From a bacterium (GTDB lineage Bacteria > JAMCPX01): DNA of 64,000 bases. Positions 12,574 through 63,750 of this stretch are shown piece after piece (position 1 is the stretch's first letter; every line of letters starts with the position of its first letter). The DNA lies in the NCBI GenBank assembly GCA_021792615.1, contig JAJYUJ010000008.1:11900-75899 (forward strand), written 5' to 3'. Under the pieces are notes generated by a model, which ran no database searches, was not told the origin of the DNA, and saw nothing but the letters and a program-made list of their open reading frames with translations. The translations under genes and the position numbers were made by a program.

Positions 12574-12650
12574 TGGTGTGCCTGGCGCGATTCGAACGCG
12601 CGACCCACAGCTTAGAAGGCTGTTGCTCTATCCACCTGAGCTACAGGCAC
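12574..12650 (-). tRNA. tRNA-Arg (anticodon TCT)
   Basis: The reverse complement reads GTGCCTGTAGCTCAGGTGGATAGAGCAACAGCCTTCTAAGCTGTGGGTCGCGCGTTCGAATCGCGCCAGGCACCA. This folds as a cloverleaf with a T-loop GTTCGAATC, anticodon loop CTTCTAA, and an encoded CCA. Confidence 0.85.
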
Positions 12651-12681
12651 ATCTTTCCGAAAGTAAATCATTCATACAACA

Positions 12682-12758
12682 TCGGGGCGAGCCGATTTGA
12701 ACGGCCGACCTCTTGCTCCCAAGGCAAGCGCTCTGGACCAGGCTGAGCTACGCCCCGC
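12682..12758 (-). tRNA. tRNA-Pro (anticodon TGG)
   Basis: The reverse complement reads GCGGGGCGTAGCTCAGCCTGGTCCAGAGCGCTTGCCTTGGGAGCAAGAGGTCGGCCGTTCAAATCGGCTCGCCCCGA. Cloverleaf with anticodon loop CTTGGGA. CCA is not encoded. Confidence 0.8.
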
Positions 12759-14473: not shown

Positions 14474-14513
14474 AGAGTCTGCCTCCTTTTCTTGGTGCTC
14501 TTATTGATATTCT

Positions 14514-16091: not shown

Positions 16092-16113
16092 ATTTTTTTC
16101 TTCTCAAGAATGC

Positions 16114-18999
16114 TTAGTATATACCACTCGGGAAAATTAGATTTATGCATGAGTTGTTTTGGTTATTTTCTATGCTTGATAAGAATATTTCGTCAAGCTT
16201 AGAAGGAGCATACTTAAACTCTCCATAATGATAAAACGCAGGACCTCCTTTACTAGGTGAATGTGGGACAAGAATAGGCTGGGAAATGGTGCCCTTGTTG
16301 TCCGTAGGACATAATGATTGTGGAAGAGTTTGAGATGCCATATAACCATATTCTTTTAGTGGCCCTATGACTGCATTGCTTATCTTTATTGCATTGGCTT
16401 TCATATTACTTGCAATTAGTGGATTCAATATAGCTTGTGAAAAGAATCCTTCGCATGCGCTATATAAATCAGTAGGGAGAGTGGGATCTACCACTATTGC
16501 TGCGGAACCTACTGCTGCTGATATTGCGGTGCATAGACCGTCTATTTGTTCTTGAGGAATCTTAACGGCTTGAACGGCAGCGTCTACAGAATCTGTAGAA
16601 AAATCTAATATATTACTTGTTGTGATATACGGCTCTAATTTAAGCGTCAGCCATGGCACATCAATCTCGGGAGTCATATTCCAAACTGGTCCATCAGACC
16701 ATCCAGCTTTGCATTGGGGATATCCTTGGCTCCAATCAACGGAGTAACACGGATTTTTCCACCAAGTTTTAATATACATGCTGACATTTATTTGTCTTGC
16801 TATTAAAGATATAGTTATACTTCCGTTATTGTTTGTAGTAATAATGGGGGAGCTGGAATTATCTAATGTGGCGGAGTCGATGATTATATTACCCTTTATC
16901 TGTACTCCAGCCTTAAAAGTATTAGTGGGATCTGGTTTTGCATTATTAGCATTACCTATTGTTGGGATAGTAGTATAAGCTGCCTTCTCCAGTTCTGTAA
17001 ATGGAACAAACCCACCATTGTAATAAGTTTGGCAACCACTATTGATGGTCGTTCCATTGAAGGTATAAACAACCTTCGGATCCCCCTTGGGACAGAGATA
17101 ATAACCCGGAACGAATGTCGATGGCCTGCATGACGGATCCACTTTTATTGAACATTCATAATCAAGTGGATCAATTAAATCAGGTGCACAATTTGGATTT
17201 ACCCATGTAGCTGTTGTAAATTCTTGATTACAATAATAAGTCTGGTTATCTGTGGTAGTTTGACCATGGGTATAATCATAATAAAGCTGAAGTATAACAG
17301 CTATGGCGTTATTCAGATTATTATCATTGATTTTTTGTTCCGCTTGATATAGAGGATTACTTGGGGACAACTCATAGGTGCCATTATCTTCCGTTATATC
17401 CTTAACCATTGAAGGGCATATCTGTCCTCCAATACTGTAATTGCCATTATTACACAATGGTAACAGAGTACTTAGAAGAGTGTTCAATAAGGACATGGGA
17501 CCCATATTTCCTATAAGAAGTTGGCATGGTTGATCCATGATACAGTTTTTATCATTGCTGCAATCGGAATAATTTTCGCAAAGGAATGGTACTACCTTAT
17601 TTGTTGGCTGGTAGTTGACTGTAATGAAATCGGTTCCTCTGTTTGTTCCCGCTGTGTTATAACCCGTTGCCACCAGTGTTTGTATACCAGGTTTTGTAAA
17701 TGGCACTACGCCACTCGTCGAGAAATTTATACCAGATGTCCCTGTGCTTGTAGTAGCACTGGTTGCAAGTATATTATTAGAAGGAGAAGTAATTGTTACA
17801 CTTGCAATATCAGAAGTAGCATCACCATATAAGCTAAACGGTGCGGTTATCGTGGGTATGTTCACATTGTCGCTTTGAGGATTGTCTATACGAATAGGCG
17901 ATGTGTGAAATGTCGTTACCTGGTCAGCTATACTATAATTGCTGCTCTCCAATGGGTTGGCAGATAAATCCTGATTACCTGCGAGCCCAGTAGGCATATT
18001 ACATTTTACCGTGGGATAAGTAAGCTTATACACTGTATCAATATCAAACCCATTTGCAGACGCTATTGTATAGCTGAATGGTTCATATGCTGGCCATTGA
18101 TTGTCCACGGTTAAGAATGTTGAAAATGTAGTATTCCAATTACCAAGCATAACATTACTATATCCTGCGTATTGACTACCGTCGACAGGAGAAAAATTCC
18201 CGCTGCTATCTTTCTTTTCAAATGCAAATTCTACAGGAGAATATAAGGTGCGTGAGAAATTCGTTGTAAACGGATAGTGTGGTGGGACGTTCATATAATC
18301 TGCATCTGGTAATGGTGCTAGTCCCATAGAACCTCCATTACCAGCTAACCAGTTCAAGAACAAGAAGAAATCGACTATACCTCCGGCAACAAGTACTTGA
18401 GCTCCAGACACAGCTCCAAACTCATTACCGTATTCGTATGATTTTACAGTCACTGGTGCACCATACTGCTGAACCGCTTCGAAAGTGTAGATGGTATTTA
18501 CCAGGGCATTGGGATTGTTTTCCAAGGAAATACCAGATTGGGTTTGTAGACCTCCATTATAGTTTACAAAAAAGTCAGCTTGTTCATACCATGCAATCTG
18601 CTGAAGATTTATCCATAAAGTAAGTTCCGTTCCTGTCGAATCAAATGAGCTATGCGTAAAATTAAGCCCAGTGACTATCCCTGCGCTGGGAAGTATTTCG
18701 ATTCCATTCATAACGAATGTTCCGGGTGCATATGTAGCCGTATTTATGGGGGAAATAAAATCTATTATTAACGCAAGTTGATTTGTAGGCTGAATCAATC
18801 TACCGCATTGTGGATATAGATGAACATCTTTTATATAATTCGCCATAAAGGCGGTATTCGGGGGTAAAGTCGTTGGAGTACAAGAGCCACCTCCACTATT
18901 AAAACTACAACCACCTCCAAATGTATTATTACACTGGACAGACGACATAATGAGTATGAACAAAACACCTATTGATAAGAGTAGATATGATCCCTTCAT
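16114..18999 (-). CDS. Giant secreted Asn/Thr/Ser/Gly/Cys-rich protein of unknown function; putative surface or adhesin-like protein
   Basis: 961 aa with an N-terminal signal (MKGSYLLLSIGVLFILIMSSVQC). Many NxT/S sequons, paired Cys clusters (CENYSDCSNDKNC, CNQEFTTATWVNPNC) and no recognisable catalytic domain. Low GC; operonic with the neighbouring secreted proteins. Confidence 0.7.
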   Translation of the reverse strand: MKGSYLLLSIGVLFILIMSSVQCNNTFGGGCSFNSGGGSCTPTTLPPNTAFMANYIKDVHLYPQCGRLIQPTNQLALIIDFISPINTATYAPGTFVMNGIEILPSAGIVTGLNFTHSSFDSTGTELTLWINLQQIAWYEQADFFVNYNGGLQTQSGISLENNPNALVNTIYTFEAVQQYGAPVTVKSYEYGNEFGAVSGAQVLVAGGIVDFFLFLNWLAGNGGSMGLAPLPDADYMNVPPHYPFTTNFSRTLYSPVEFAFEKKDSSGNFSPVDGSQYAGYSNVMLGNWNTTFSTFLTVDNQWPAYEPFSYTIASANGFDIDTVYKLTYPTVKCNMPTGLAGNQDLSANPLESSNYSIADQVTTFHTSPIRIDNPQSDNVNIPTITAPFSLYGDATSDIASVTITSPSNNILATSATTSTGTSGINFSTSGVVPFTKPGIQTLVATGYNTAGTNRGTDFITVNYQPTNKVVPFLCENYSDCSNDKNCIMDQPCQLLIGNMGPMSLLNTLLSTLLPLCNNGNYSIGGQICPSMVKDITEDNGTYELSPSNPLYQAEQKINDNNLNNAIAVILQLYYDYTHGQTTTDNQTYYCNQEFTTATWVNPNCAPDLIDPLDYECSIKVDPSCRPSTFVPGYYLCPKGDPKVVYTFNGTTINSGCQTYYNGGFVPFTELEKAAYTTIPTIGNANNAKPDPTNTFKAGVQIKGNIIIDSATLDNSSSPIITTNNNGSITISLIARQINVSMYIKTWWKNPCYSVDWSQGYPQCKAGWSDGPVWNMTPEIDVPWLTLKLEPYITTSNILDFSTDSVDAAVQAVKIPQEQIDGLCTAISAAVGSAAIVVDPTLPTDLYSACEGFFSQAILNPLIASNMKANAIKISNAVIGPLKEYGYMASQTLPQSLCPTDNKGTISQPILVPHSPSKGGPAFYHYGEFKYAPSKLDEIFLSSIENNQNNSCINLIFPSGIY

Positions 19000-19010
19000 A
19001 AGTACCTCCC

Positions 19011-19886
19011 TTAGTATGTGTTTGGTATCAATTGCTTTATGTAGCCCATTGCGTTGTTAAGCATCTCATTCGTTATGTAAGATGGTGGATCCTGGTTGGA
19101 TAATGCAATCTTTGCCTTTGTCTGGGGCGTTGATTGCGTAAAGGATTCTATCTGAGAAAGCGATCTCGCAGATGCGAGCGCTGTCAGTGAATTATTGTTG
19201 GGATTGTTAATAATTGATTGTAGAACAGGTTCCAATGCTTTATTGTACGTGTTCCCGCTTGATTCTGCACAGGCAGCTTGGAGAAGATCGGGCTGACTTG
19301 AATCAAGACAATATTCAAATGTCTTTATAATCTTATGAAGATAATGACTGCTGCCCTCTTCATTATTATCATCTCCATCATTACATCTTTCGGAAGAATT
19401 ATCACGGTTATTTAAAACAATATAATGAGCTAATTGGCCAAGCGTAATCGCTGCCTCTATCCTCAAACTGAGTTCAAACTTGTAAGCGCTCGGGGTAGCT
19501 GAAGCGTTACACGCATTTGAGAACTTATTAAAAATGCTCGAATCATCATCTATCTTCTGCGTTACAATGGTACTTGTGCCTTTTATCGTCTCGTAAAGCT
19601 TGCCTTCATATGCAACATCCAACGCCTTCGAAACGACCTGCTGTGCATGGGTTTGTGGATGCTCTAAGATTTCTTCTGCCGCTCCATAACGCTCATGCTT
19701 TTTATCACTGTTCAATCGGTTAAGTAAATCTTGTTCTCTGTTGCTAAACCAGGAAATAAACGATTGGCACTGAGGTGAAATGGTGGTATTGTTTTGTCCT
19801 GATCGATCGTCGTCGCTGAATGCTGAATTTAATACAAATCCTAGGAACAAGGATATTACACTTAGAAACAAAAGAATTCTTTTCAT
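19011..19886 (-). CDS. Secreted/lipoprotein-like protein with HEAT/PBS-lyase-like repeats, unknown function
   Basis: 291 aa with a signal peptide. Helical repeats such as EAAITLGQLA. It is the first gene of the four-gene low-GC operon. Confidence 0.55.
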   Translation of the reverse strand: MKRILLFLSVISLFLGFVLNSAFSDDDRSGQNNTTISPQCQSFISWFSNREQDLLNRLNSDKKHERYGAAEEILEHPQTHAQQVVSKALDVAYEGKLYETIKGTSTIVTQKIDDDSSIFNKFSNACNASATPSAYKFELSLRIEAAITLGQLAHYIVLNNRDNSSERCNDGDDNNEEGSSHYLHKIIKTFEYCLDSSQPDLLQAACAESSGNTYNKALEPVLQSIINNPNNNSLTALASARSLSQIESFTQSTPQTKAKIALSNQDPPSYITNEMLNNAMGYIKQLIPNTY

Positions 19887-24187: not shown

Positions 24188-25576
24188 TTACTTGCCTATG
24201 CAGAATTCTGCAAAGATCTTATCGAGTATATCCTGCGATGTCACTTCTCCGGTAAGCTCTTTCAGTCCGACAAGCGCGCTGTCGACTTCTTCGGCGACAA
24301 TTTCCGGGAATGCCTGTTGATCGATAAGATTGATGGCTGCATTTAAGGAAAGCTCTATATGTTCCAGTGCCTGCTTATGCCGGTACCTGTTTATGACCGG
24401 CGCATTCTCGATCGAGGGCGATAGAGCGGGTCCTGAAACGCCCTGTACGAGTGACTCGACGCCTTCGCGCGTTTTAGCCGATACCGGGAATACGGAATAA
24501 TCCTCAAATGCATTTTTTGCCTGTTCAATCTGGTCTGCGGATGCAATATCCACTTTGTTTATCGCGATAATGACATTGTCCTTGTGCTCTTGTGCGATCG
24601 AGAGTTCTTCGTCGTAACGAGACGCTGCCGCCGGATCAATAACAATGATGACGATATCCGATTTTTCTACCCTGCTGCGGGTCATCTCCATACCAAGCTT
24701 TTCGATAGGCTCTTCGCTGTTCCGGATCCCCGCAGTGTCGGTAAATACGAGTTTTACGCCTTTGTGGTTGATTACTTCTTCTATATAGTCCCTCGTCGTT
24801 CCCGGATGGGGTGTAACTATGGCCCTGTTTTCTCCGACGATTGCGTTAAAAAGGCTTGATTTGCCCGCGTTGGGCCTTCCAATCAATACAACGTGTATGC
24901 CTTCCCGTATAATTTTTGCATGGTCGTAACTTTTCAATACGTGTACGACCTCATCATGCGCAGCCTGCAGTATGAACTTCAGATCGAACAATTGCTTTGG
25001 GGAAGCTTCCTCCTCCGGAAAATCTATCAGCACTTCTAAGTTTGTTTTTACCTGAACGAGCTTTTTCTTTATCGAAGAAATAAACTCGGACAGTACGCCC
25101 GAAATCTGTTTTATTGCCTGCACTCTCGCAGCGTCTGTATCCGCCCGAACAAGATCCAAAACCGCTTCCGCCTGTAACAGATCCATCTTGCCATTCAAAA
25201 ATGCCCGTCTGGTAAATTCTCCCCTGTCTGCAAGCCTTGCCCCGGCCTTCAATACTCTCTGCAAAACGGAGTTGATGACATTCGAACCTCCGTGCGTGTA
25301 TATCTCCACCATTTCCTCCCCGGTGTAGGTTTTGCCGGCTTTCATAAAAGCGATCAATACCTGATCGAGAGAAGAGGTGTTTGCCCCATTCATAACAGAA
25401 CCCCGGTACAATCTGTGGCTCTGATATTTTTTTATGGGTTTTGAAGGTAAAAATATCTCCCGGAATATTTGGTATGCCTTGTTGCCGCTCAGCCGGACTA
25501 TGCCTATGGCGCCTTCACCCTGGGCCGTGCTTATGGCAGCAATGGTGTCGGTTGTTACGATTGTATTTTTTTTCAT
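24188..25576 (-). CDS. mnmE: tRNA modification GTPase MnmE (TrmE)
   Basis: 462 aa with G-domain motifs (GRPNAGKSSL, DTAG) and the C-terminal CIGK motif. Confidence 0.95.
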   Translation of the reverse strand: MKKNTIVTTDTIAAISTAQGEGAIGIVRLSGNKAYQIFREIFLPSKPIKKYQSHRLYRGSVMNGANTSSLDQVLIAFMKAGKTYTGEEMVEIYTHGGSNVINSVLQRVLKAGARLADRGEFTRRAFLNGKMDLLQAEAVLDLVRADTDAARVQAIKQISGVLSEFISSIKKKLVQVKTNLEVLIDFPEEEASPKQLFDLKFILQAAHDEVVHVLKSYDHAKIIREGIHVVLIGRPNAGKSSLFNAIVGENRAIVTPHPGTTRDYIEEVINHKGVKLVFTDTAGIRNSEEPIEKLGMEMTRSRVEKSDIVIIVIDPAAASRYDEELSIAQEHKDNVIIAINKVDIASADQIEQAKNAFEDYSVFPVSAKTREGVESLVQGVSGPALSPSIENAPVINRYRHKQALEHIELSLNAAINLIDQQAFPEIVAEEVDSALVGLKELTGEVTSQDILDKIFAEFCIGK

Positions 25577-26054
25577 AGTACTGTTTTATTCAGTTTAATC
25601 TTTTACCGCTTGTCACGGCAACGATTATAAAACCTATTCCTATTCTGTGCATATTCATGTACAAGTGTCAATCTGACAGAGAGTATCCACTCTCAAAAAC
25701 CTTCCCGGTTTGCCGCTCAATGTTTGCTATCATCAAAAGCTTGACAAGCAGGAATTATAGCATAATATGAAGTTGTGAAAAAGACTAAATTACTTTTATA
25801 TTTCAATAAGTTAGTCAATAACAACACTTTGTGGTCAGTTTTTTACACTATACCATATATTGTTTATATTTAATGGTTTTTTTTCGCATGAAAAGCAGGG
25901 GAAAAGCACAGAAAATGAATGGTAACTATTTGTATTATATATACTTTACAGGTTTTCCACAGGTGTTGAAAAACTTGTGTGTTTCTCATGCTGGTTTGCT
26001 TTTGATCTCAACAAGTTACACTACAAGTTATATGATAATTATAAGGGGGCCTCT
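25577..26054. other. AT-rich mnmE-dnaA intergenic region; candidate oriC / dnaA promoter region
   Basis: About 480 bp at around 30% GC. DnaA-box-like 9-mers: TTTTCCACA near 25953 and GTATCCACT near 25683. There are few perfect boxes. Confidence 0.4.
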
Positions 26055-27371
26055 ATGGAAGCGTGGGAAAAAATAAAAAAAGAATTGATTAATATTTATA
26101 AGGATACCAACGACGATCCGTGGATAACTATCTTAAATCCTTTAAGTTTTAATGATAACTCCCTTATACTTGGGGTACCTGATGATTTTTCATTAGACTG
26201 GATAAAAACTCACTATCACTCTGATATATTGAAATTGGCAAGGTCTATAATCGGCGACGGAACAAATGTCGAGTTGGTAATCGACCATAGAGAAGAAATC
26301 GATGTTGAAAGTCACGCTTTTTTACCTAATATAGGGTTTACCCATCTCAATAATTCAAAAGGCCTTTTAAAAAACTATACCTTTGATAATTATGTGGTAG
26401 GCGAATCAAATAAATTTGCAAGCGCTGCCGCGGTTGCCGTTTCTCAAAACCCGGGCAGGTCATATAATCCTCTTTTTATATACGGCGGTGTCGGACTCGG
26501 CAAAACACACGTTATCAATGCGATCGGCAACCTCATCGACGATGAACATAAAGGGTTGAATATCATTTATATGACCACGGAAAATTTCGTTAACGATCTT
26601 GTGAATCATCTGAGAGACAGGAAAATGGATATTTTCAGGGAGGTCTATAGAAATTGCGATGTGCTGCTTATCGATGATATTCAGTTTATTTCGAATAAGG
26701 AGCGATCCCAGGAAGAAATGTTTCATACATTCAATACGCTGTATGAAGAAAAGAAACAGATAGTATTTACGTCCGATAAACTCCCCAAAGAAATTCCCAA
26801 TATAGAGGAGCGGCTGAGAAGCAGGTTCGAGATGGGTCTTATCGCAGACATACAGGTACCCGACATAGAAACGAAGGTAGCTATTATAAAAAAGAAGGCA
26901 GAGAGTGACCGTATCGAGATCGATGATGAAATAGCTTTTTTCCTGGCATACAACACCCAATCGAACATACGGGAACTCGAAGGCTATCTTACCCGGTTGT
27001 CCGCGTATGCAATTTTGACAAAGACAAAGCTGAATATCCACGTTGCAAAAGAAGTTTTATCCGGTCTCATTAGAAAAAAGGATAAATGGCTTACCATAGA
27101 TGATATCCAGAAAGCAGTAGCCATGCATTTCAAAATAAAAGTTTCAGACCTTCTTTCTACGAAGAGAATGAAGTTTATAGCCCTCCCCAGGCAGGTGGCA
27201 ATGTTTTTGTCCCGCACGCTCACCAATGCTTCTTATCCTGAAATAGGACTCCAATTTGGGAACAAGGACCATTCAACCGTCATTCACTCCGTCAATAAAA
27301 TAACAGAGATGATAAAGGACAATCAAAGTATAAAAGATGCTGTTGAAAAAATCAAAAAAGGTTTAGGATAA
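26055..27371 (+). CDS. dnaA: Chromosomal replication initiator protein DnaA
   Basis: Walker A GGVGLGKTH, sensor LIDDIQF, and domain IV (RQVAMFLSRTLTNASYPEIGLQFGNKDHSTVIHS). Start at MEAWEK with the RBS AAGGGGG. Strikingly low GC, about 33-36%. Confidence 0.95.
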   Translation: MEAWEKIKKELINIYKDTNDDPWITILNPLSFNDNSLILGVPDDFSLDWIKTHYHSDILKLARSIIGDGTNVELVIDHREEIDVESHAFLPNIGFTHLNNSKGLLKNYTFDNYVVGESNKFASAAAVAVSQNPGRSYNPLFIYGGVGLGKTHVINAIGNLIDDEHKGLNIIYMTTENFVNDLVNHLRDRKMDIFREVYRNCDVLLIDDIQFISNKERSQEEMFHTFNTLYEEKKQIVFTSDKLPKEIPNIEERLRSRFEMGLIADIQVPDIETKVAIIKKKAESDRIEIDDEIAFFLAYNTQSNIRELEGYLTRLSAYAILTKTKLNIHVAKEVLSGLIRKKDKWLTIDDIQKAVAMHFKIKVSDLLSTKRMKFIALPRQVAMFLSRTLTNASYPEIGLQFGNKDHSTVIHSVNKITEMIKDNQSIKDAVEKIKKGLG

Positions 27372-27556
27372 GAGAGTGATAAAGTTGTTGAAAAAGTACA
27401 ATTTATTTTTTATAGTGTTTATCAACAGAATAAGAACAATAGATTAAACAGGAATTATGAATTGTTTATATAAAAAATTCAATAACATAAGATAATAATT
27501 ATTTTATAAACATGCTTTACTACTACTAAAAATATAAAGACTATTAGGAGAGAATA
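27372..27556. other. Extremely AT-rich dnaA-dnaN spacer; alternative oriC / DNA-unwinding-element candidate
   Basis: About 20% GC. Contains TTATCAACA, which is 8/9 of the DnaA box TTATCCACA, near 27418. Confidence 0.35.
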
Positions 27557-28651
27557 ATGGAATTTACAATAGATAAAAGAATTTTGCTGATAGAAGTAAG
27601 CAAGGTTATCGGTGCAACGGAGCGAAAAGCTACAATGCCTATTTTATCAAATATATTATTAAAAGCGGAGAAGGGGACTCTTAAGATAACGGGAACGGAT
27701 TTGGAAGTTACGATAATAAGCATCATCAACTGTAATATTGTATCGGAAGGACAGGTATCCATTCCTGCAAAGAAATTTTATGATTATATCAGAGAATTGC
27801 CGGACAGGGACATCAACATAAAAAAAGAAGACGGTTTTATAGAGATCAGTACGGAAAAGATTTCCGGCAGATTAAAGGTGTTACAGGCAGAGGATTTTCC
27901 ACATATAGACGAATACAAGGGAAGTTATACGAAGGTATCGTATGAACAATTATTAAAGATGATCGATAAAACAATCTATGCAACGTCAATCGATGAAGTA
28001 AAATATAGCTTGAATGGTGTTTATATAGAAAAGGCCCTCGATAGTCTGCGTTGTGTTGCGACGGACAGTCACCGTCTTGCTCTGTACGAGGATGAAAGTC
28101 TAAAATCTATAGAGGGTCTTACAAAAGGTATCATCGTTCCAAGAAAAGGTCTGTATGAAATAAAGAAAATCGGCACGGAAAATGAAATAAATATCGCGGT
28201 AGAAAAAAATAAAAATTTAATTGTGAATATAGGGAATACGATTATACAAATACGGTTACTGGATTATGATTTTCCGGATTATAAATCGGTTTTACCTTCC
28301 GAAACAACAATAAATATAAAAATAAAAAAAGATATTTTGGTGTCCGCGGTCAAAAGGGCACAATCGATATATCAGGAAAAAATATCGCGGGTTGTATTGG
28401 ACATACAGAAAGACACAATCATCGTCGAGAGCAACGAACCCGATATCGGTGAAGTAAAGGAAGAAATAGAGATCGACTATAAAGGTAATCCGCTGAAAAT
28501 AGGGTTTAATGGCAAATACCTGCTCGATTGTTTGAACTCTATGGACGGCGAATTCGTATCCATGGGTTTCAATAACGAACAAAGCGCAAGTACGTTTTTT
28601 GCGGACGACAATAAAAAGCATATGAACCTCATCATGCCGATGAGGATGTAA
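27557..28651 (+). CDS. dnaN: DNA polymerase III beta sliding clamp
   Basis: 364 aa with a three-domain clamp architecture, starting MEFTIDKRILL, and a C-terminal MPMRM. Low GC, like dnaA. Confidence 0.93.
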   Translation: MEFTIDKRILLIEVSKVIGATERKATMPILSNILLKAEKGTLKITGTDLEVTIISIINCNIVSEGQVSIPAKKFYDYIRELPDRDINIKKEDGFIEISTEKISGRLKVLQAEDFPHIDEYKGSYTKVSYEQLLKMIDKTIYATSIDEVKYSLNGVYIEKALDSLRCVATDSHRLALYEDESLKSIEGLTKGIIVPRKGLYEIKKIGTENEINIAVEKNKNLIVNIGNTIIQIRLLDYDFPDYKSVLPSETTINIKIKKDILVSAVKRAQSIYQEKISRVVLDIQKDTIIVESNEPDIGEVKEEIEIDYKGNPLKIGFNGKYLLDCLNSMDGEFVSMGFNNEQSASTFFADDNKKHMNLIMPMRM

Positions 28652-51203: not shown

Positions 51204-51474
51204 AATGCGTTTTAAAAATAAGGAAGTTTATGCAATGAGTGATGGGGTACCCACCCGGCCGGGAAGGGTGCGGATGAGGTCTCATGAAGACGACCATAGA
51301 CCTCACCTTAATCCTCTCCTAAGAGGAGAGGAAAAGAAAAGAAGAAAATTCAGCCCCCTAAGAAATGATTTTCCCTGTCAAGGGGATAAGTAAGGTCTCC
51401 CCCTGTCAAGGGGGAATGAGGGGGTTGTGGATCGCGGGAATAAGTAAATTTCCTTATTGCATTTTTCGGGTAAC
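51204..51474. mobile_element. MITE-like element, variant copy D (about 270 bp), inverted relative to copy C
   Basis: Ends ...TTATTGCATTTTTCGGGTAAC. The interior is near-identical to the reverse complement of 45441-45676, with an extra roughly 25-bp internal duplication (GGGATAAGTAAGGTCTCCCCCTGTCAA). Confidence 0.7.
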
Positions 51475-55685: not shown

Positions 55686-56642
55686 TTAATTTCCCCCTGA
55701 TAAGGGGGACAAAGGGGGTTTCGACCCCTCACTTTTCATTCCCCGCTGCTTCCCCTTGTGTGCCCGCGGATGCGCATCATCGTAAACCTTCATGAGCCTG
55801 TCCATACTTGTGTGCGTGTAAATCTGTGTCGTCGAGATGCTCGAATGACCGAGCAGCTCCTGAATAAACCTTAAATCCGCACCTGCATCAAGCAGATGTG
55901 TTGCGAATGTATGCCGTAAAGAATGCGGGCTTATGTGTTTGTTGATGCCCGACTTCTGCATATATTTTTTTACAATCATACCAACGGCCCTTCGTGTAAG
56001 CCTTTTCCCGTATTTGTTTACAAACATAGCCCCTGTTTGTGCCTTGCCCTGTAAAAAAACCATTCTTTCCTTCAGATAATGCCCTACGACCTCAACAGCC
56101 TTTTTATTGACCGGAACAACACGCTCTTTTCTTCCCTTCCCGATAACCCGCACATAGCCTATATTAATATCAATATTCTCAATATCCAGTCCTACAAGTT
56201 CAGAAACACGCAATCCGCTTGCGTAAAACAGTTCCAGCATTGTCCTGTCCCGCAGGGATAAGAAGCTGTCGCCCTCCGGCAGTTCGATGAGGCCGAATAC
56301 CTCGTCAACATTCAGAAATCCAGGAAGCAGCTTGTCCTTCTTCGGTATTGCTATAAGTTCGGCAGGATTCATCCCGATATGATGTTCCCTCAGTAAAAAC
56401 TTGTAGAATGTTTTTAAAGCGGCAAGCTTCCTTCCCACAGAACTTTTCTTGTCCGTTTTCAGAAGCGAGGTTATGAAACTCCTTATCTCCGGCAAGCCTG
56501 CCGATTCAAGAGATTTCGCGGGATGTGTGGTCTTTAAAAATGCCGAAAATTGCCGCAGGTCAGAGAGGTAGGCATCAAGAGTATTGCCGGATGCGCCTTT
56601 CTCTACGTTGAGATAGGTACTGAAGGCATCAATATAATCCAT
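55686..56642 (-). CDS. xerC: Tyrosine recombinase XerC/XerD family
   Basis: R...HxxR...Y catalytic region [12 protein letters not shown]...[13 protein letters not shown]. The C-terminal roughly 20 codons read through a GC-hairpin repeat. Likely true start at MDYIDAF. Confidence 0.88.
55690..55735. repeat. GC-clamped hairpin repeat (CCCCCTGATAAGGGGG, then ACAAAGGGGGTTTCGACCCC) between xerC and hslV
   Basis: Same motif family as the tandem arrays at 63095-63195 and 63680-63750. Confidence 0.7.
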
Positions 56643-60182: not shown

Positions 60183-60352
60183 CCCCCCTCTTAAGATAAG
60201 AGGGGGCAAGGGGGCGTTATGAGATTTATACGCAAGACCCAACATTTAAAGGAACAAGGTGTAATAAGGAATGATTAAAACCGTAACTTCCTTAATCCCT
60301 CTTAACCTAAGAGGGATAACGCAGGAGAATCCCCTGCTTAATCTCAGAGGAT
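60183..60352. repeat. Cluster of three related GC-clamped hairpins (CCCCTCTTAAG-a-TAAGAGGGG; ATCCCTCTTA-acc-TAAGAGGGAT; an imperfect third) in the topA-mutS spacer
   Basis: Read directly. Related in style, though not in loop sequence, to the CCCCCTGATAAGGGGG family. Confidence 0.55.
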
Positions 60353-60370
60353 ACAATCTAACGGATAACC

Positions 60371-62962
60371 ATGACTAAACCCCCGACTCCTTTAGTCCAG
60401 CAGTACCTTGAAATAAAATCCAGATATAAGGATGCGATCCTTTTTTACCGGCTCGGTGATTTTTACGAGATGTTTTTCGAGGACGCGGTTACCGCAGCAC
60501 CCGTCCTTGACCTGACCCTTACATCACGGCACAAGGACGTCGAAGACCCGGTACCCATGTGCGGCGTGCCGTATCATGCTGCAGCGCCGTACATAAAAAA
60601 GCTTTTGGATGCGGGATTCAAGGTTGCAATATGTGAGCAGCTCGAGGACCCTGCAAAGGCAAAGGGTATCGTAAAACGGGATGTCATACGGGTAGCAACA
60701 CCGGGACTTATCTATGATCCGGACATGCTTGAATCCAATCAAACTAACTATATTGCGGTACTTGAAGACTCGCCTGAAGGCTCCGGTGTCGCATTCTTCG
60801 AGCCGTCCACATCCGAACTTCTCTTAATGTCAACAGCGGATCCCGAGCAGATATTCTCGGAGATAAAAAAACTGATGCCGAAAGAGATAATCTATAAAGA
60901 CAAGCACCTGCCGATCCGGATTATCAACCTGTTCGGCGCGGAGGTCCCTTTTATTCTTACCCCGGTGACCGGGCAGCATTTTGCATGGGACACTCTGCAG
61001 GAAAGGGTCCTTGATATATGGGGCGGCCAGCTCACCGGTGCAGGTATTACGGACAACAGCATACTGTTATCCGTTACAGCCGCGTTGTTCCGGTATCTGG
61101 AAGACACCAAAACCCCTATCAGCAATATTACCATAAAGAGGGTGCTGCCCTCTCTCTACCTCTATATGGACAGTGCAACCATTCGTAACCTCGAGCTGTT
61201 CAATTCCATTATAGACGGTTCGGAGAAGATAAGCCTCGTCGGAGTCATGGATAAAACTATAACGCCCATGGGTGCACGCATGCTGCGTCATTATCTCCGG
61301 TTCCCGAGCGTATCCTCGCAGGAGGTTATAGCACGGCATGCTGTCGTGGAATATTTTTTCAACGAGCCGGTTGCACGCGCGGAGTTGAGGAACAGGTTGA
61401 AAGATGTAGGCGATATAGAAAGAATTGTTACCAAGGCGCACAACATGACCCTGACCCCGCAATCCCTGCAAAGGTTTGCCCTGTCCCTCGATGCCATGAA
61501 AGACGTCAAACAAATGATACGTAAAGACATACCCCTGCTTGCCGGGCTGTATGAATCCATGGACGAGCTGATGGATGTCCGGGCCTCGATCGCAGCTACA
61601 ATCGATCTGTCCGACGAGCAAAACGAACACGGCTGGTTTGTTCGTGCGGGTATCAATGCCCGGCTCGATGAGATAAAGCTGCTGGTGAAAGACACCAGGG
61701 GCTGGCTCAGGCGTTTCGAACAGGAAGAGCGCACGAGGACTGGCATCGGATCGCTCAAGGTAGGATACACAAGTGTTTTCGGATATTATATAGAGGTCAC
61801 CAGGCCGAACCTCCGTCTTGTGCCCGAGGATTATATACGGAAGCAGACCGTTGCAAACGGAGAACGGTTTATTACGCCAAAACTCAAGGAAATGGAGGTC
61901 AGACTGCTGAGTTCCGAAGAGCAGATAAAGGGTATCGAGGGCGGTTACCTGAGTACATTGAACGAAACGGTCTCAAAAAATGCATCTCGCATACTCATGT
62001 CTGCGTCCGCAATAGCCGCGGTCGATGTGCTGTCGGATTTTGCGGAGATCTCGGTAAGGAACAAATATGTCAAGCCCCTTGTCGATGACGGCGATGTCGT
62101 GGAATTAAAGGATGCCAGACACCCGGTCATAGAGCAGTACCTGAAGGGAGCTGCCTTCATACCCAACGACATTACATTAAACAGCACGGACAGGCAGATC
62201 GTCATCATCACAGGTCCGAACATGTCGGGTAAATCCACCATCATTCGGCAATCAGCCTTGATTGCGCTCATGGCACAGATGGGCTGCTTTGTGCCTGCAA
62301 CCTCTGCGCGGCTCGGTATTATCGACCGGATCTTCGCACGGGTAGGGGCATCGGATCATCTTGCTAAAGGACAGAGTACCTTTATGGTCGAGATGACCGA
62401 AACCGCAAATATCCTCAGCAGTGCTACAGGCAGGAGCCTGATTATCCTTGACGAGATAGGCAGGGGTACGAGCACGTACGACGGCATCAGCATTGCATGG
62501 GCGGTGCTCGATTACCTGGCGAACACCATAGGTGCAAAAACCCTGTTTGCAACGCATTACCATGAGCTGATCGAGTTCGGTCAGAGCCACCCCAAGGCCA
62601 TAAACCAGTCCATACCGGTCAAGCAGTGGCAGGGCAGGCTTATCTTTGTACGCAAGCTTATCGATGGAGGTTCAAGCGAGAGCTTCGGCATCGAGGTCGC
62701 TAAGATGGCAGGCCTGCCAAAGGACGTTATAGCCCTTGCACAGAGACTGCTCAAGAAACTGCAGGACGGCGAGATAGACAGCCTCGGCAGGCCTCGGCTT
62801 GCAGAGGGCGCGCAGTCGCACGCAGTGCAGTACGCGTTGTTCAAGCCTGATGATGCGAAGCTGTTCGAGATGCTCAAAACGGCAAATCCGGACCACATGA
62901 CGCCCCTTGAGGCGCTCCAGTTTCTGATGAAGGTAAAGGAGGCTATGGATGATAAGAAATAG
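60371..62962 (+). CDS. mutS: DNA mismatch repair protein MutS
   Basis: 863 aa with the N-terminal mismatch-binding region (GDFYEMF) and Walker A GPNMSGKST. Confidence 0.96.
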   Translation: MTKPPTPLVQQYLEIKSRYKDAILFYRLGDFYEMFFEDAVTAAPVLDLTLTSRHKDVEDPVPMCGVPYHAAAPYIKKLLDAGFKVAICEQLEDPAKAKGIVKRDVIRVATPGLIYDPDMLESNQTNYIAVLEDSPEGSGVAFFEPSTSELLLMSTADPEQIFSEIKKLMPKEIIYKDKHLPIRIINLFGAEVPFILTPVTGQHFAWDTLQERVLDIWGGQLTGAGITDNSILLSVTAALFRYLEDTKTPISNITIKRVLPSLYLYMDSATIRNLELFNSIIDGSEKISLVGVMDKTITPMGARMLRHYLRFPSVSSQEVIARHAVVEYFFNEPVARAELRNRLKDVGDIERIVTKAHNMTLTPQSLQRFALSLDAMKDVKQMIRKDIPLLAGLYESMDELMDVRASIAATIDLSDEQNEHGWFVRAGINARLDEIKLLVKDTRGWLRRFEQEERTRTGIGSLKVGYTSVFGYYIEVTRPNLRLVPEDYIRKQTVANGERFITPKLKEMEVRLLSSEEQIKGIEGGYLSTLNETVSKNASRILMSASAIAAVDVLSDFAEISVRNKYVKPLVDDGDVVELKDARHPVIEQYLKGAAFIPNDITLNSTDRQIVIITGPNMSGKSTIIRQSALIALMAQMGCFVPATSARLGIIDRIFARVGASDHLAKGQSTFMVEMTETANILSSATGRSLIILDEIGRGTSTYDGISIAWAVLDYLANTIGAKTLFATHYHELIEFGQSHPKAINQSIPVKQWQGRLIFVRKLIDGGSSESFGIEVAKMAGLPKDVIALAQRLLKKLQDGEIDSLGRPRLAEGAQSHAVQYALFKPDDAKLFEMLKTANPDHMTPLEALQFLMKVKEAMDDKK

Positions 62963-63094
62963 GATAAAATACGGTCATTGCGGGGAGCGATTTTGCGACG
63001 AAGCAATCTGCACGCACAAGGATTGCTTCACTATCGTTCGCAATGACGGGTATGCTGGTGTCATTGCGAGGAAGGAAAGACGAACCAATCTCTT

Positions 63095-63195
63095 TCCGCA
63101 TTTCCCCCTGATAAGGGGGCATCTCCCGTATCTCCCCCTGATAAGGGGGCATCTCCCGTATCTCCCCCTGATAAGGGGGATAAAGGGGGTTTAAA
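63095..63195. repeat. Tandem array of three 30-bp units (CATCTCCCGTATCT + hairpin CCCCCTGATAAGGGGG), ending ATAAAGGGGGTTT
   Basis: Hairpins at 63104-63119, 63134-63149 and 63164-63179, with an exact 30-bp period. The whole unit repeats with no unique spacers. Confidence 0.85.
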
Positions 63196-63198
63196 AAG

Positions 63199-63750
63199 AT
63201 GAAACCACAATTTATTCCTTATAATAAAGAATTAATTAAAAATGCTAAGGAAAACAGGAAAAATCCAACTGTAGCAGAGAAAAAACTGTGGCGTGATGTA
63301 CTTAGTAACAAGCAATTTACCTTGCATAAATTTACAAGACAAAAGCCTTTGGATAATTTCATAGTTGACTTTTACTGTTCCGAGCTTCTGTTAGTTATTG
63401 AAGTTGATGGCGACACGCATGCCAATCAGGAAGAATACGACAAACAACGCAGCAGAATTTTATTAGAAAAATACAATATCCAAGTCATAAGATACTACAA
63501 CAGTGAAGTATTAAAAAATATTGAAGGCATACGCACAGATTTACTTGAGAAAACAAAACAAAGAAAACAACAAATCAAACCAACCCCCCAGCCCCCCTTG
63601 TCAGGGGGGATAAGAAGGCTATCCTCAGACAAAGAAAAAAGCCTGGTTAAGGAGACTCCTCCGGGACAAGGGGCATCCCTTTCATCTCCCCCTGATAAGG
63701 GGGCATCTCCCGTATCTCCCCCTGATAAGGGGGATAAAGGGGGTTTATGA
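63199..63750 (+). CDS. DUF559 endonuclease-domain protein (Vsr-like PD-(D/E)xK fold). The C-terminal roughly 55 codons read through the downstream hairpin array.
   Basis: Core motifs TxxExxLWxxL...FxxQxxxxxxxVDFxxxxxxLxIExDGxxH...D..R...L...G. About 33% GC. The true protein probably ends near 63590. Confidence 0.75.
   Translation: MKPQFIPYNKELIKNAKENRKNPTVAEKKLWRDVLSNKQFTLHKFTRQKPLDNFIVDFYCSELLLVIEVDGDTHANQEEYDKQRSRILLEKYNIQVIRYYNSEVLKNIEGIRTDLLEKTKQRKQQIKPTPQPPLSGGIRRLSSDKEKSLVKETPPGQGASLSSPPDKGASPVSPPDKGDKGGL
63590..63750. repeat. Second hairpin array (CCCCCCTTGTCAGGGGGG, then two 30-bp units, then ATAAAGGGGGTTT), a direct repeat of the array upstream of the DUF559 gene
   Basis: 63718-63748 is identical to 63165-63195. 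Confidence 0.8.

What the first reader, a model, noticed from the sequence alone, without database searches (positions are those of the whole stretch)
63095..63750. Low-GC DUF559 endonuclease cassette flanked by direct tandem GC-hairpin arrays, immediately downstream of mutS
The DUF559 gene is about 33% GC, the lowest in the window. It is bracketed by two arrays of a 30-bp unit (CATCTCCCGTATCT + CCCCCTGATAAGGGGG) that share an identical 31-bp terminal segment (…CCCCCTGATAAGGGGGATAAAGGGGGTTTA), so they are direct repeats. That is the signature of a small selfish insertion, a Vsr-like or homing-type nuclease that landed in or spread with a hairpin repeat. The repeats extend both the DUF559 ORF and a spurious ORF at the mutS 3' end. 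Placement next to mutS is worth noting because Vsr-family nucleases are functionally linked to mismatch repair.
Basis: partly seen in the sequence, partly recalled or inferred. Interest (0 to 1): 0.6.

Follow-up and report, generated by a model that had tools for sequence, protein, structure and literature searches.

The report
Hairpin-bounded DUF559 nuclease mobile cassette
A small nuclease gene next to mutS is bracketed by copies of a hairpin repeat, is present or absent among near-identical strains, and belongs to a widespread and apparently undescribed family of selfish nuclease-plus-hairpin elements that can even sit in frame inside essential genes.

Summary
A 183-codon ORF at 63199-63750 has a DUF559 domain (Pfam E=2.5e-28, 31.7% GC) and lies between two arrays of a 30-nt hairpin unit. 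The arrays end in a 64-nt identical direct repeat, not 31 nt.

Strains with 0 mismatches over 12.7 kb upstream lack exactly 614 bp here and keep one hairpin unit. Empty and filled alleles occur on two MutS allele backgrounds.

The hairpin belongs to the element. In 80 homologous loci from more than 12 phyla, the motif CCCCC-TGAYAA-GGGGG-N3-5-GGGGG-TT ("L") usually starts 26 nt before the conserved IPY codons. Its inverted copy ("R") follows the gene. Hairpin stem variants track protein clades (65/68 nearest neighbours). More distant DUF559 genes have no such hairpins (0/16).

The motif is mostly ORF-less: 105 solo copies in a metagenome sample against 2 followed by the gene. Solo copies often form R-L doublets that fold as one long hairpin.

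The same element sits in frame inside MiaA, MiaB, RecG, RecJ, LeuRS, a Mur ligase and methyltransferases, with hairpin-encoded linkers.

The protein is under purifying selection (dN/dS about 0.2). After 3HRL, its nearest fold is the I-Bth0305I homing endonuclease domain.

Adjacency to mutS is incidental (0/80 other loci). The mechanism is inferred: break-and-repair at the repeats, homing-like.

The parts
62974..63095 (+). An unrelated second palindromic repeat family (GTCATTGCG...CGCAATGAC; one full copy plus a partial copy) between the mutS stop and the hairpin array. It is not part of the element, but it is a site of further deletions in sister alleles.
   Evidence: (D19). Alleles L215 and L216 have deletions between its copies.
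63104..63193 (+). Left array: three L-type hairpin units (63104-63119, 63134-63149, 63164-63179) separated by CATCTCCCGTATCT. The last unit is followed by ATAAA-GGGGG-TTTA, a second G-run that resembles a Shine-Dalgarno sequence and ends 9 nt before the ATG.
   Evidence: (D1, D2). Unit number varies among strains: 3, 2 or 1.
63199..63750 (+). DUF559 ORF of 183 aa. The nuclease domain is 63232-63552 (aa 12-118). The C-terminal 63 codons are read through the repeats.
   Evidence: Pfam PF04480 E=2.5e-28. PDB 3HRL E=3.6e-15. AF2 model pLDDT 82, with Foldseek hits to 3HRL and I-Bth0305I. dN/dS 0.17-0.20.
63584..63609 (+). R motif: an inverted copy of L (C-run, AG, CCCCCCTTGTCAGGGGGG). It forms the right inverted-repeat end of the conserved L-ORF-R unit.
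   Evidence: I3-I7, 94% complementary to the L hairpins. The same position and orientation are seen in homologues from many phyla.
63610..63687 (+). Spacer plus a degenerate hairpin unit (63657-63673, TCCTCCGGGACAAGGGG). This tail is conserved with the L085 and L216 copies.
   Evidence: (D1).
63688..63747 (+). Right array: two L-type hairpin units (63688-63703, 63718-63733) and the terminal ATAAAGGGGGTTTA. 63684-63747 is a 64-nt perfect direct repeat of 63130-63193.
63120..63733 (.). The 614-bp segment that is absent from empty alleles. Its boundaries can be slid anywhere within the shared repeat. Removing it reproduces the L001/L002 allele exactly except for one base.
63748..63748 (+). T here, G in empty alleles L001/L002. 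It is the only substitution in the 12.7 kb upstream plus 277 nt downstream that were compared. The T creates the TGA stop of the DUF559 ORF.
55693..55721 (+). Solo L motif (CCCCCTGATAAGGGGGACAAAGGGGGTTT) between hslV and xerC, with no DUF559.
51283..51428 (+). ORF-less doublet: an R-like hairpin (TCCTCTCCTAAGAGGAGAGGA), a spacer, and a 2-unit L array ending CCCCCTGTCAAGGGGGAATGAGGGGGTT. It lies in the argF/argD intergenic region.
60183..60315 (+). Variant L (CCCCCCTCTTAAGATAAGAGGGGG-CAA-GGGGG) and an inverted R-like partner 78 nt downstream, just upstream of mutS. It may be an ORF-less L...R derivative.
   Evidence: I1, D7, D8.

Best explanation
The feature is one copy of a widespread selfish element made of two partners.

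1. A small Vsr-like (DUF559) nuclease gene.
2. Its cognate 28-30-nt DNA motif, 'L': a 5-6-bp G:C hairpin with loop TGAYAA, followed by a second G-run and TT.

The conserved unit is L-ORF-R, where R is the inverted copy of L. The same motif is scattered through host genomes as ORF-less solo copies, arrays and R-L doublets.

At this locus the unit is followed by a 78-nt tail and more L units. The cassette therefore lies between direct repeats of L, 64 nt of which are identical.

Shown:
- The cassette is gained or lost precisely at these repeats among near-identical strains, leaving a single L unit.
- The number of 30-nt units varies between strains.
- Protein clade and hairpin variant co-evolve.
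- The protein is under purifying selection.
- L-ORF-R can sit in frame inside host genes, with the hairpins translated as Pro/Gly-rich linkers.

Inferred:
- The nuclease recognises the L/R hairpin, as duplex DNA or as an extruded hairpin or cruciform, and nicks or cuts there.
- Repair that uses another motif copy linked to the ORF copies the cassette into a solo motif. This is a homing-like gain that needs only about 30-60 bp of repeat homology.
- Single-strand annealing or slippage between the flanking L repeats deletes the cassette (the empty alleles) or changes the number of units.
- The same activity probably spreads the ORF-less copies, much as RAYT transposases are thought to spread REPINs.

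Adjacency to mutS is incidental.
For: Local anatomy:
- Hairpin arrays, the inverted copy and the 64-nt direct repeat.

Empty and filled alleles:
- L001/L002 have 0 mismatches over 12,749 nt upstream. They differ by a clean 614-bp deletion and one adjacent SNP.
- A second MutS allele background also has both an empty (L213) and filled (L214, L215) forms. The empty allele keeps the variant loop (TGATAG) of the leftmost unit of its filled sister.
- Left-array unit counts of 3, 2 and 1 occur among filled alleles.

Family level:
- 60/80 loci from more than 12 phyla have L within 150 nt upstream of the gene. The modal start is exactly 26 nt before the IPY codons.
- 37/80 have R within 170 nt downstream. 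The background in the flanks is 0.17 per kb.
- Hairpin stem variants (C5-6/G5-6 versus CCTCCCC/GGGGAGG) follow protein clades: 65/68 nearest neighbours share the variant. Nitrospirota and Deltaproteobacteria appear in both clades.
- Sixteen more distant DUF559 genes in viral contigs have no L or R.

Dispersal:
- Of 128 L motifs sampled from metagenomes, 2 are followed by DUF559 and 105 are solo copies with room for a gene.
- 38/114 are preceded by an R-type hairpin. An example R-L doublet folds as one hairpin (dG -21 kcal/mol, z = -3.0).

Flanking direct copies:
- They are locus-specific: 63% identity within a locus against 37% between loci, and the own partner is the best match in 15/21 loci.

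Insertions into genes:
- One methyltransferase carries the element while 94%-identical homologues do not.
- MiaA carries it (DNA confirmed in L233), while 119 of the 120 best-matching MiaA homologues lack it.
- It is nested inside MiaB, RecG, RecJ, LeuRS, AlaRS, a Mur ligase, a RumA-like methyltransferase and HsdS, splitting their Pfam domains.

Protein:
- dN/dS 0.17-0.20.
- Closest folds are 3HRL and the I-Bth0305I homing endonuclease catalytic domain.
- ORF GC is below flank GC in 77/79 loci.
- Cassette history is decoupled from its flanks. Against L216 the DUF559 is 98.9% identical and the flanks 95-96%. Against L085 it is 80%, with mutS at 97% and Rce1-like at 71%.
Against: - No nuclease activity, cleavage site or transfer event has been observed. 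The link between the enzyme and the hairpin rests on co-localisation and co-evolution only.
- At this locus the direction of change is most simply loss, not gain. DUF559 is old here, as L085 shows. Deletion between hairpin-forming direct repeats could happen by replication slippage without any nuclease.
- I found only one copy in the 74 kb of this genome that I could read, and no near-identical paralogues in the databases. Recent intragenomic spread is therefore not shown.
- ORF-less copies are mostly R-L doublets. This is not the L...R order expected from a simple internal deletion of L-ORF-R, so their origin is unexplained.
- No short target-site duplication was seen in the one close filled/empty gene pair.
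- In Gallionella the gene is syntenic and lacks R. That looks like vertical inheritance or domestication.
Confidence: 0.6

Rival explanations
1. A REPIN/RAYT-like partnership in which the DUF559 gene itself is essentially immobile and vertically inherited, that is, domesticated. The nuclease acts in trans only to disperse or maintain the ORF-less R-L doublets. The local presence/absence polymorphism is ordinary deletion between repeats.
For: - The gene is single-copy in the sequence I could read.
- It occupies the same site in the diverged relative L085.
- Gallionella copies are syntenic.
- Solo copies outnumber copies followed by the gene by about 50:1 and form hairpin doublets like REPINs.
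- The gene is flanked by doublets on both sides in L024, L074 and L082.
Against: - The protein tree cuts across host phyla. For example, Firestonebacteria is nearest to this deltaproteobacterial copy, and Firmicutes groups with Brocadia.
- ORF GC is below host GC in 77/79 loci.
- L-ORF-R occurs as a derived insertion inside many unrelated genes.
- Poribacteria carry tandem multi-copy clusters (L025).
Confidence: 0.2
2. The hairpins are cis-regulatory RNA elements of the gene: a 5' stem-loop that competes with the Shine-Dalgarno-like second G-run, and a 3' stabiliser. Solo copies are merely scars of deleted genes.
For: - In the window the second G-run ends 9 nt before the ATG, and the C-run could pair with either G-run.
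- Hairpins in the 5' UTR that sequester the ribosome-binding site are documented for free-standing Vsr-like and other homing endonuclease genes (PMC2677866).
- Deletion does leave a solo L at this locus.
Against: - In 56/65 loci the reading frame runs open through the hairpin. Only 20/65 have a start codon between the hairpin and the conserved N-terminus.
- R is an inverted DNA copy of the whole L motif, G-run included. That is a DNA-level symmetry.
- Nested copies have no UTR at all.
- Solo copies are typically R-L doublets, and arrays occur far from any gene.
- No terminator-like tails were found, and nothing reached an Rfam gathering score.
Confidence: 0.07
3. Host REP-like hairpins are unrelated to DUF559. 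The gene simply landed in, or is retained at, a recombination-prone repeat cluster.
For: The motif occurs elsewhere in the window without DUF559. 98% of sampled motifs are ORF-less.
Against: - The same motif sits at a fixed 26-nt distance from the coding sequence in hosts from more than 12 phyla.
- Stem variants co-vary with protein clade.
- The motif is absent around more distant DUF559 genes.
- 2/107 motifs followed by the gene, and 8/120 loci with the gene nearby, is far more than I would expect for a gene family this sparse. That background rate is my estimate, not a measurement.
Confidence: 0.05
4. A Vsr-type repair nuclease that works with MutS (very-short-patch or mismatch repair), placed next to mutS for functional reasons.
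For: It has a Vsr-like fold and lies immediately downstream of mutS.
Against: - 0/80 homologous loci elsewhere are next to mutS.
- The gene is dispensable in strains with identical MutS.
- There is no adjacent cytosine methyltransferase.
- Vsr itself is only a weak structural match (E = 0.26 to 1).
- The nearest solved relatives are 3HRL and a homing endonuclease.
Confidence: 0.03
5. L and R are the inverted repeats of a programmed inversion switch that flips the nuclease gene on and off.
For: 'DUF559 domain-containing protein' is enriched 14-fold among predicted programmed-inversion targets (PMC9881135). The gene is bounded by inverted repeats.
Against: - All seven independently assembled filled alleles at this locus have the same orientation.
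- No invertase is encoded nearby.
- Nested in-frame copies could not tolerate inversion.
Confidence: 0.03

Closest known systems
Vsr-like ('EDxHD') homing endonucleases: I-Bth0305I in a recA group I intron, and free-standing genes in 'fractured' genes (PMC3239194, PMC2677866)
   Same: - The catalytic fold is the same. The I-Bth0305I catalytic domain (3R3P) is the second-best structural match (Foldseek prob 1.0, TM 0.61/0.73).
- It is a selfish nuclease gene found as a derived insertion in conserved DNA- and RNA-metabolism genes.
- Hairpins lie upstream of the ORF.
- GC is lower than the host's.
   Different: - There is no intron or intein context and no NUMOD/HTH DNA-binding extension. The protein is about 120 aa of catalytic domain only.
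- It is bounded by inverted copies of a specific hairpin motif that also exists as many ORF-less copies.
- It is translated in frame with the host gene without splicing.
- Its target appears to be a dispersed repeat rather than a unique gene sequence.
- Cleavage activity is untested.
REP / REPIN - RAYT systems (repetitive extragenic palindromes and their Y1 HUH transposases; PMC3479197, PMC8266576, PMC5581495)
   Same: - A single small nuclease-type gene is flanked by inverted copies of a palindromic repeat.
- The same repeat is dispersed through intergenic regions.
- It often occurs as inverted doublets that fold into one long hairpin.
- Enzyme and repeat co-vary.
   Different: - The enzyme is a PD-(D/E)XK Vsr-like nuclease, not a Y1/HUH transposase.
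- The motif lacks the GTAG/CGTC tags.
- The gene is horizontally mobile across phyla and can be nested inside coding sequences.
Inteins carrying homing endonucleases
   Same: It is an in-frame insertion of an endonuclease-encoding segment into loops of conserved housekeeping proteins (aminoacyl-tRNA synthetases, helicases, RecJ, tRNA-modification enzymes). Close homologues are uninterrupted.
   Different: No Hint or splicing domain was detected. The insert presumably stays in the mature protein, connected by hairpin-encoded Pro/Gly linkers. The element also lives in intergenic DNA with its own start codon, as it does here.
Rickettsia palindromic elements (RPEs) and other MITEs that insert in frame into genes (from my own knowledge: Ogata et al. 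2000)
   Same: These are palindromic repeats whose reading frames stay open, so they are tolerated inside protein-coding genes. ORF-less copies are dispersed through the genome.
   Different: RPEs have no known cognate enzyme. Here a full-length, nuclease-encoding version exists and co-evolves with the repeat.
IS/MITE pairs with terminal inverted repeats; integron cassettes with attC hairpins
   Same: - It has inverted-repeat ends.
- There are autonomous and non-autonomous copies.
- It shows cassette-like gain and loss at a structured repeat, leaving one repeat copy.
   Different: - There is no DDE, serine or tyrosine recombinase, and no integron integrase nearby. The xerC at 55.7 kb belongs to the ordinary xerC-hslVU cluster.
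- There is no short target-site duplication. Instead there are long, locus-specific direct repeats.

Membership tests
DUF559 / Vsr-like PD-(D/E)XK nuclease (Pfam PF04480) | Sequence match to the family profile above the curated cut-off | tested here: met
   98.5 bits against a cut-off of 20.6, E=2.5e-28, aa 12-118. NCBIfam PRK09767 scores 67 bits, below its equivalog cut-off of 218, so it is not an orthologue of that family.
DUF559 / Vsr-like PD-(D/E)XK nuclease (Pfam PF04480) | Vsr-like alpha/beta nuclease fold | tested here: met
   AF2 model pLDDT 82, pTM 0.77. Foldseek: 3HRL E=2.8e-7; 3R3P (I-Bth0305I) E=1.9e-3, prob 1.0; Vsr 1VSR/1CW0 weaker.
DUF559 / Vsr-like PD-(D/E)XK nuclease (Pfam PF04480) | Conserved acidic and His active-site residues | tested here: inconclusive
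   D53, E64, D66, H70 and D77 (numbering of alignment A1) are invariant in 12 diverse members. I did not superpose them on the Vsr or I-Bth0305I active sites.
Homing endonuclease gene (free-standing or nested) | Alleles with and without the gene exist at the same site in close relatives | tested here: met
   Window, L088, L089, L090, L214, L215 and L216 are filled. L001, L002 and L213 are empty. A methyltransferase and MiaA exist with and without the insert.
Homing endonuclease gene (free-standing or nested) | The enzyme cleaves the empty allele, and the gene is copied in by repair | not testable with these tools
   This needs biochemistry and genetic crosses.
Homing endonuclease gene (free-standing or nested) | Evolutionary history of the gene decoupled from its flanks (co-conversion or transfer) | tested here: inconclusive
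   Against L216 the DUF559 is 98.9% identical and the flanks 95-96%. Against L085 it is 80%, with mutS at 97% and Rce1-like at 71%. This is suggestive, but the samples are small.
REP/REPIN-RAYT | The enzyme is a Y1 (HUH) transposase | tested here: not met
   Pfam finds only DUF559 and a sub-threshold match to the related restriction-endonuclease-like MTES_1575, with no Y1_Tnp.
REP/REPIN-RAYT | The gene is flanked by inverted copies of a palindromic repeat that is also dispersed, often as hairpin-forming doublets | tested here: met
REP/REPIN-RAYT | Single-copy, vertically inherited enzyme gene | tested here: inconclusive
   It is single-copy in the 74 kb I could read and syntenic in L085 and in Gallionella. 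But the protein tree conflicts with host phyla, and multi-copy clusters exist (L025).
IS element / MITE | Terminal inverted repeats | tested here: met
   L and R are inverted copies of about 28 nt.
IS element / MITE | A recognised transposase (DDE, HUH, serine or tyrosine) | tested here: not met
   The only ORF is DUF559.
IS element / MITE | Short target-site duplication | tested here: not met
   None is evident in the L021/L091 pair. The flanks instead carry long, locus-specific direct repeats of the motif.
Intein | Hint/splicing domain flanking the endonuclease | tested here: not met
   No intein, Hint or LAGLIDADG families at E<=1e-5 in 10 nested proteins.
Integron gene cassette | attC-type site plus an IntI integrase and attI platform | tested here: not met
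   No integrase is adjacent. Gene calls around the locus list only xerC, 7 kb away within the xerC-hslVU cluster.
Vsr very-short-patch repair system | Genetic linkage to a cytosine-5 methyltransferase, or a conserved link to mismatch repair genes | tested here: not met
   The neighbours are mutS and an Rce1-like protease. mutS adjacency is 0/80 elsewhere.
Known structured RNA (Rfam 15) | Match at the gathering threshold | tested here: not met
   Only two tRNAs in the window. The best sub-threshold hits are RAGATH-34 at 28 bits (gathering 60.7) and whalefall-1 at 18 bits (gathering 37).

The most novel reading that the evidence does not exclude
This DUF559 subfamily is the cognate enzyme of a pan-bacterial family of palindromic hairpin repeats. 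It would be a second, RAYT-independent repeat-plus-nuclease replicator.

Its autonomous form (L-ORF-R) would be built to be translationally transparent. The hairpin ends encode Pro/Gly linkers and keep one frame open. The element can then home into intergenic repeats, or sit permanently in frame inside essential genes such as aminoacyl-tRNA synthetases, RecG, RecJ, MiaA and MiaB. It would act as a non-splicing analogue of an intein, expressed by its host gene.
Probability: 0.35. Interest if true: 0.88.

Novelty: new variant of a known kind. Interest (0 to 1): 0.78.

Why it matters
- DUF559 is a very large family with no assigned role. A profile of this subfamily found 14,611 clusters (50% identity) at E<=1e-10. 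This result gives one subfamily a concrete and testable role with a defined DNA partner.
- It would explain a class of G/C-run hairpin repeats that recur across many phyla. These repeats generate spurious or extended ORFs with peptides such as PPDKGGKGG and PPLSGG, which is useful for annotation.
- It adds a PD-(D/E)XK nuclease to the short list of enzymes that partner with dispersed palindromic repeats. So far these are mainly the RAYT HUH transposases.
- The in-frame nested copies inside essential genes, with no splicing domain, would be a new way for a homing-type element to hide in a host gene.
- The small size, about 120 aa with a roughly 28-nt site, makes the enzyme easy to test and possibly useful.
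- At this locus the cassette also marks a recombination boundary: mutS is 97% identical to L085 and the downstream gene only 71%.

Tried and rejected
- Rfam at gathering and E-value thresholds: nothing reached a gathering score.
- Promoter and terminator scans: no more hits than in shuffled sequence, and the hairpins lack T-tails.
- PHROGs and PADLOC: only marginal hits, to an HNH phrog and to mREase_II. There is no support for a phage or defence assignment.
- Viral contigs: only 16 distant relatives (34-47% identity), none with the hairpins. Phages are not an obvious vector.
- Plasmids: 2 distant hits in Picosynechococcus.
- Literature:
  - No paper contains the motif strings.
  - The titles and abstracts of the 25 papers that mention DUF559, and of the 7 that mention COG2852, do not point to a repeat association. 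I searched the text of only three of them.
  - The searches on REPIN/RAYT and on Vsr-like hairpins found no equivalent.
- mutS functional link: rejected.
- Assembly artefact: rejected. The filled allele was assembled independently in at least 7 records and the empty allele in 3.
- My first ungapped comparison of flanking repeats was mis-registered by one base and gave no signal. Re-anchoring on the loop fixed it.
- Target-site duplication:
  - The methyltransferase filled/empty pair showed none. The linker there is too variable to place the junction to the base.
  - The closest uninterrupted MiaA is only 65% identical, too far for a DNA-level junction.
- Origin of R-L doublets from L-ORF-R: I considered a circular intermediate, tandem junctions, and staggered cuts at a cruciform base. 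None could be tested.
Full report
OBSERVATION

The ORF 63199..63750 (+) encodes 183 aa. Residues 12-118 match Pfam DUF559 (E=2.5e-28). The ORF lies 236 nt after the stop of a complete mutS (60371..62962, all five MutS domains).

Tandem Repeats Finder reports period-30 arrays at 63096-63179 and 63668-63732. The 16-nt hairpin CCCCCTGATAAGGGGG occurs five times around the gene. With up to 3 mismatches the window has 15 matches, against 0.42 expected from shuffles.

The perfect direct repeat is 64 nt (63130-63193 = 63684-63747), not 31 nt.

The domain part is 31.7% GC against 47.1% for the window. It is the third-lowest 375-nt stretch. The two lower ones flank dnaA.

EMPTY AND FILLED ALLELES

An exact-protein look-up of MutS returned contigs from other assemblies.

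- In L001 (GCA_027455045.1) and L002, mutS is followed by one hairpin unit plus ATAAAGGGGGTTTA and then the downstream Rce1-like gene. DUF559 is absent.
- Against the window these contigs have 0 mismatches in 12,749 nt upstream. They have one mismatch in 277 nt downstream, at 63748, immediately after the repeat. That T creates the ORF's TGA stop.
- Deleting window 63120-63733 (614 nt) reproduces their sequence exactly.

A second MutS allele, 99.2% identical at the DNA level, also exists in both states. L213 is empty; L214 and L215 are filled. The empty allele keeps the variant loop TGATAG that marks the leftmost unit of its filled sister.

Filled alleles carry 3, 2 or 1 left units (window and L089; L090 and L214; L216).

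A more distant relative, L085, has a 67%-identical DUF559 (80% at the DNA level) at the same site with the same layout. Its mutS is 97% identical at the DNA level and its Rce1-like gene only 71%.

I conclude three things.
- The gene is old at this site.
- The empty alleles are most simply independent precise losses between the direct repeats.
- The cassette sits at a boundary of genetic exchange.

The cassette's history is partly decoupled from its flanks. Against L216 the DUF559 is 98.9% identical while the flanks are 95-96%.

THE HAIRPIN BELONGS TO THE GENE FAMILY

Protein homologues at 50-67% identity come from many phyla. Their called ORFs often start with PPDKGGKGG and end with PP.SPLSGG. 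These peptides are translations of the hairpin and of its reverse complement.

In 80 genome loci:
- 60 have the forward hairpin core within 150 nt upstream. The modal position is exactly 26 nt before the conserved (Y/F)IPY codons.
- The upstream consensus is CCCCCCTGAYAAGGGGGG-CAA-GGGGGG-TT ('L').
- 37 have the inverted copy within 170 nt downstream, with consensus CCCCC-TAAAT-CCCCCTTATCAGGGGG ('R'). This is the reverse complement of the whole L motif.
- The background in the flanks is 0.17 per kb.

A second stem variant (CCTCCCC...GGGGAGG, with a matching change in the extra G-run) is confined to one protein clade. 65 of 68 nearest neighbours share the variant. Nitrospirota and Deltaproteobacteria are present in both clades.

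Sixteen more distant DUF559 genes in viral contigs (34-47% identity) have no such motif anywhere.

This co-variation and the negative control show that gene and hairpin form one evolving unit.

DISPERSED ORF-LESS COPIES

I scanned metagenome contigs for the L motif in the form seen in this host.
- Only 2 are followed by DUF559.
- 105 are solo copies with room for a gene.
- Of 114 motifs with enough flanking sequence, 38 are preceded 25-35 nt upstream by an R-type hairpin, usually of the other stem variant.
- An example R-L doublet, about 76 nt long, folds as one long hairpin (dG -21 kcal/mol, z = -3.0).

Around the genes the common layout is R-L-ORF-R-L. There are 64 R-to-L pairs within 200 nt, against 4 short L-to-R pairs.

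Where an L copy lies on both sides of the ORF, the two copies resemble each other beyond the conserved core. Identity at variable positions is 63% within a locus and 37% between loci. The own partner is the best match in 15 of 21 loci. This fits duplication of local sequence or gene conversion.

Poribacteria show tandem full and partial elements (L025).

IN-FRAME INSERTIONS IN GENES

In several phyla L-ORF-R sits in frame in a linker of an N6/N4 DNA methyltransferase of about 870 aa.
- Homologues 94% identical are uninterrupted and have no hairpin there.
- 75 of 88 uninterrupted homologues have a 7-aa linker.
- 13 have 3 to 11 extra residues that may be footprints.
- One has a 44-nt collapsed hairpin at that spot.

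An exhaustive profile search found 171 clusters (50% identity) at E<=1e-30 and 14,611 at E<=1e-10. About one in six of the best 150 are long proteins.

Pfam shows the DUF559 domain nested inside MiaA, MiaB, RecG (twice), RecJ, LeuRS, AlaRS, a Mur ligase, a RumA-like methyltransferase and HsdS. Host domains are split and no intein domain is present.

For MiaA the DNA shows perfect L and R ends inside the coding sequence. 119 of the 120 best-matching MiaA homologues lack the insert, which falls in a variable loop.

This fits the finding that in 56 of 65 loci the frame is open through L, and only 20 have a start codon after it. The element can be translated as part of a host protein.

The window copy is an intergenic version with its own ATG. 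It is not in frame with mutS.

THE PROTEIN

- dN/dS is 0.17-0.20 against the L085 and L087 copies.
- The closest solved sequence is 3HRL.
- An AlphaFold model (pLDDT 82) matches 3HRL and then the catalytic domain of the homing endonuclease I-Bth0305I. E. coli Vsr is a much weaker match.
- ORF GC is below flank GC in 77 of 79 loci, by 7.5 points on average. This is also true at L085, L087, L216 and L233.

MECHANISM

Shown:
- Precise gain or loss at direct L repeats.
- Variation in unit number.
- Co-evolution of enzyme and hairpin.
- Dispersed ORF-less copies.
- Derived in-frame insertions.

Inferred:
- The nuclease recognises L/R and breaks DNA there.
- Repair from a motif copy linked to the ORF copies the cassette in, which is homing into a dispersed repeat.
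- Annealing or slippage between flanking repeats removes it or resizes the arrays.
- The same activity may spread the doublets.

I give this 0.6 overall. I am far more confident that this is a selfish nuclease-repeat unit than I am in the break-repair details.

The main rival (0.2) is a RAYT-like domesticated gene that only services the repeats. Regulatory-RNA, chance-association, MutS-partner and inversion-switch readings are each weak, for the reasons given under rival explanations.

COMPARISON AND NOVELTY

The fold and lifestyle resemble the Vsr-like (EDxHD) homing endonucleases (PMC2677866, PMC3239194). The repeat architecture resembles REPIN-RAYT. The nested copies resemble inteins without splicing, and Rickettsia palindromic elements.

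It fails defining tests for RAYT (no Y1 transposase), IS elements (no transposase, no short target duplication), inteins (no Hint domain), integron cassettes (no integrase) and Vsr repair (no methyltransferase or conserved mutS link).

Full-text searches found no description of this pairing. The only trace is that DUF559 genes are enriched among predicted inversion targets (PMC9881135), presumably because of the L/R inverted repeats.

I rate it a new variant of a known kind.

LIMITS

- Everything is computational.
- The origin of R-L doublets and the exact insertion chemistry remain open.

Noticed in passing
window 62974-63095: A second, unrelated palindromic repeat (GTCATTGCGRGGAGCGA...TCGTTCGCAATGAC, one full and one partial copy) lies between mutS and the hairpin array. 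Sister alleles L215 and L216 carry deletions between its copies. It gives the 'VIARKER...' type of spurious peptide.
   Followed up: partly
window 60183-60315: Just upstream of mutS there is a variant L motif (longer stem CCCCCCTCTTA/TAAGAGGGGG plus CAAGGGGG) and an inverted partner 78 nt downstream, with no ORF between them. It may be an ORF-less L...R derivative, so mutS is flanked on both sides by this repeat superfamily.
   Followed up: partly
window 51283-51428 and 55693-55721: ORF-less copies of the motif sit in the argF/argD and hslV/xerC intergenic regions. The first is an R-like hairpin plus a 2-unit L array. The second is a solo L that overlaps the 3' end of the xerC ORF.
   Followed up: partly
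window 24188-28651: The gene order is mnmE(-), dnaA(+), dnaN(+). The two lowest-GC stretches of the window (about 26-29% GC) lie at the mnmE-dnaA and dnaA-dnaN boundaries. This is probably the replication origin, about 36 kb from the cassette.
   Followed up: partly
window 12577-13030 and 13841-19886: Two tRNA genes are followed by a 158-nt tandem duplication that includes part of a tRNA. Next to them is a lower-GC block encoding an OmpA-like beta-barrel, a PQQ/beta-propeller protein and two large ORFs (960 and 290 aa) with no Pfam match. This could be an island inserted at a tRNA gene.
   Followed up: partly
L085 versus window (mutS / DUF559 / Rce1-like): DNA identity steps down sharply: 97% in mutS, 80% in DUF559 and 71% in the downstream Rce1-like gene. 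The repeat and cassette therefore mark a boundary of genetic exchange between lineages.
   Followed up: partly
L025:3650-5450 (Poribacteria chromosome OY764061.1): Four DUF559 copies lie within 8 kb. There are tandem 101-nt units made of a leader, L and the first 15 codons of the ORF, and repeated 3' ORF ends plus R. This indicates frequent partial duplication at the hairpins.
   Followed up: partly
P0183 (protein): A different, hairpin-less DUF559 lineage is inserted at another position in the same methyltransferase family, before '...QKERDFIELILRAY'. This gene family seems to be a repeated target of DUF559 genes.
   Followed up: no
P0274 (1214 aa): A large type IIG-like methyltransferase/endonuclease carries two separate DUF559 inserts. 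Each is surrounded by tandem peptide repeats (ERGLGDHAL x5; LPSPREGVGEGSGVRAE x3; ASPLPEAKEPGTRL x3), which are presumably translated repeat arrays.
   Followed up: no
L001:13720-14193 and 18379-18639 (downstream of the window end): Downstream of the Rce1-like gene are a 23S_rRNA_IVP family gene, a small 86-aa GIY-YIG ORF and a PIN/PhdYeFM toxin-antitoxin pair. These are further small mobile or selfish-type genes in the neighbourhood.
   Followed up: no
L233:2880-2892 (3' end of miaA, protein P0314): The MiaA that carries the nested element also ends in ...SPDKGEKIL. This looks like another translated L-type hairpin at the gene's 3' end.
   Followed up: no
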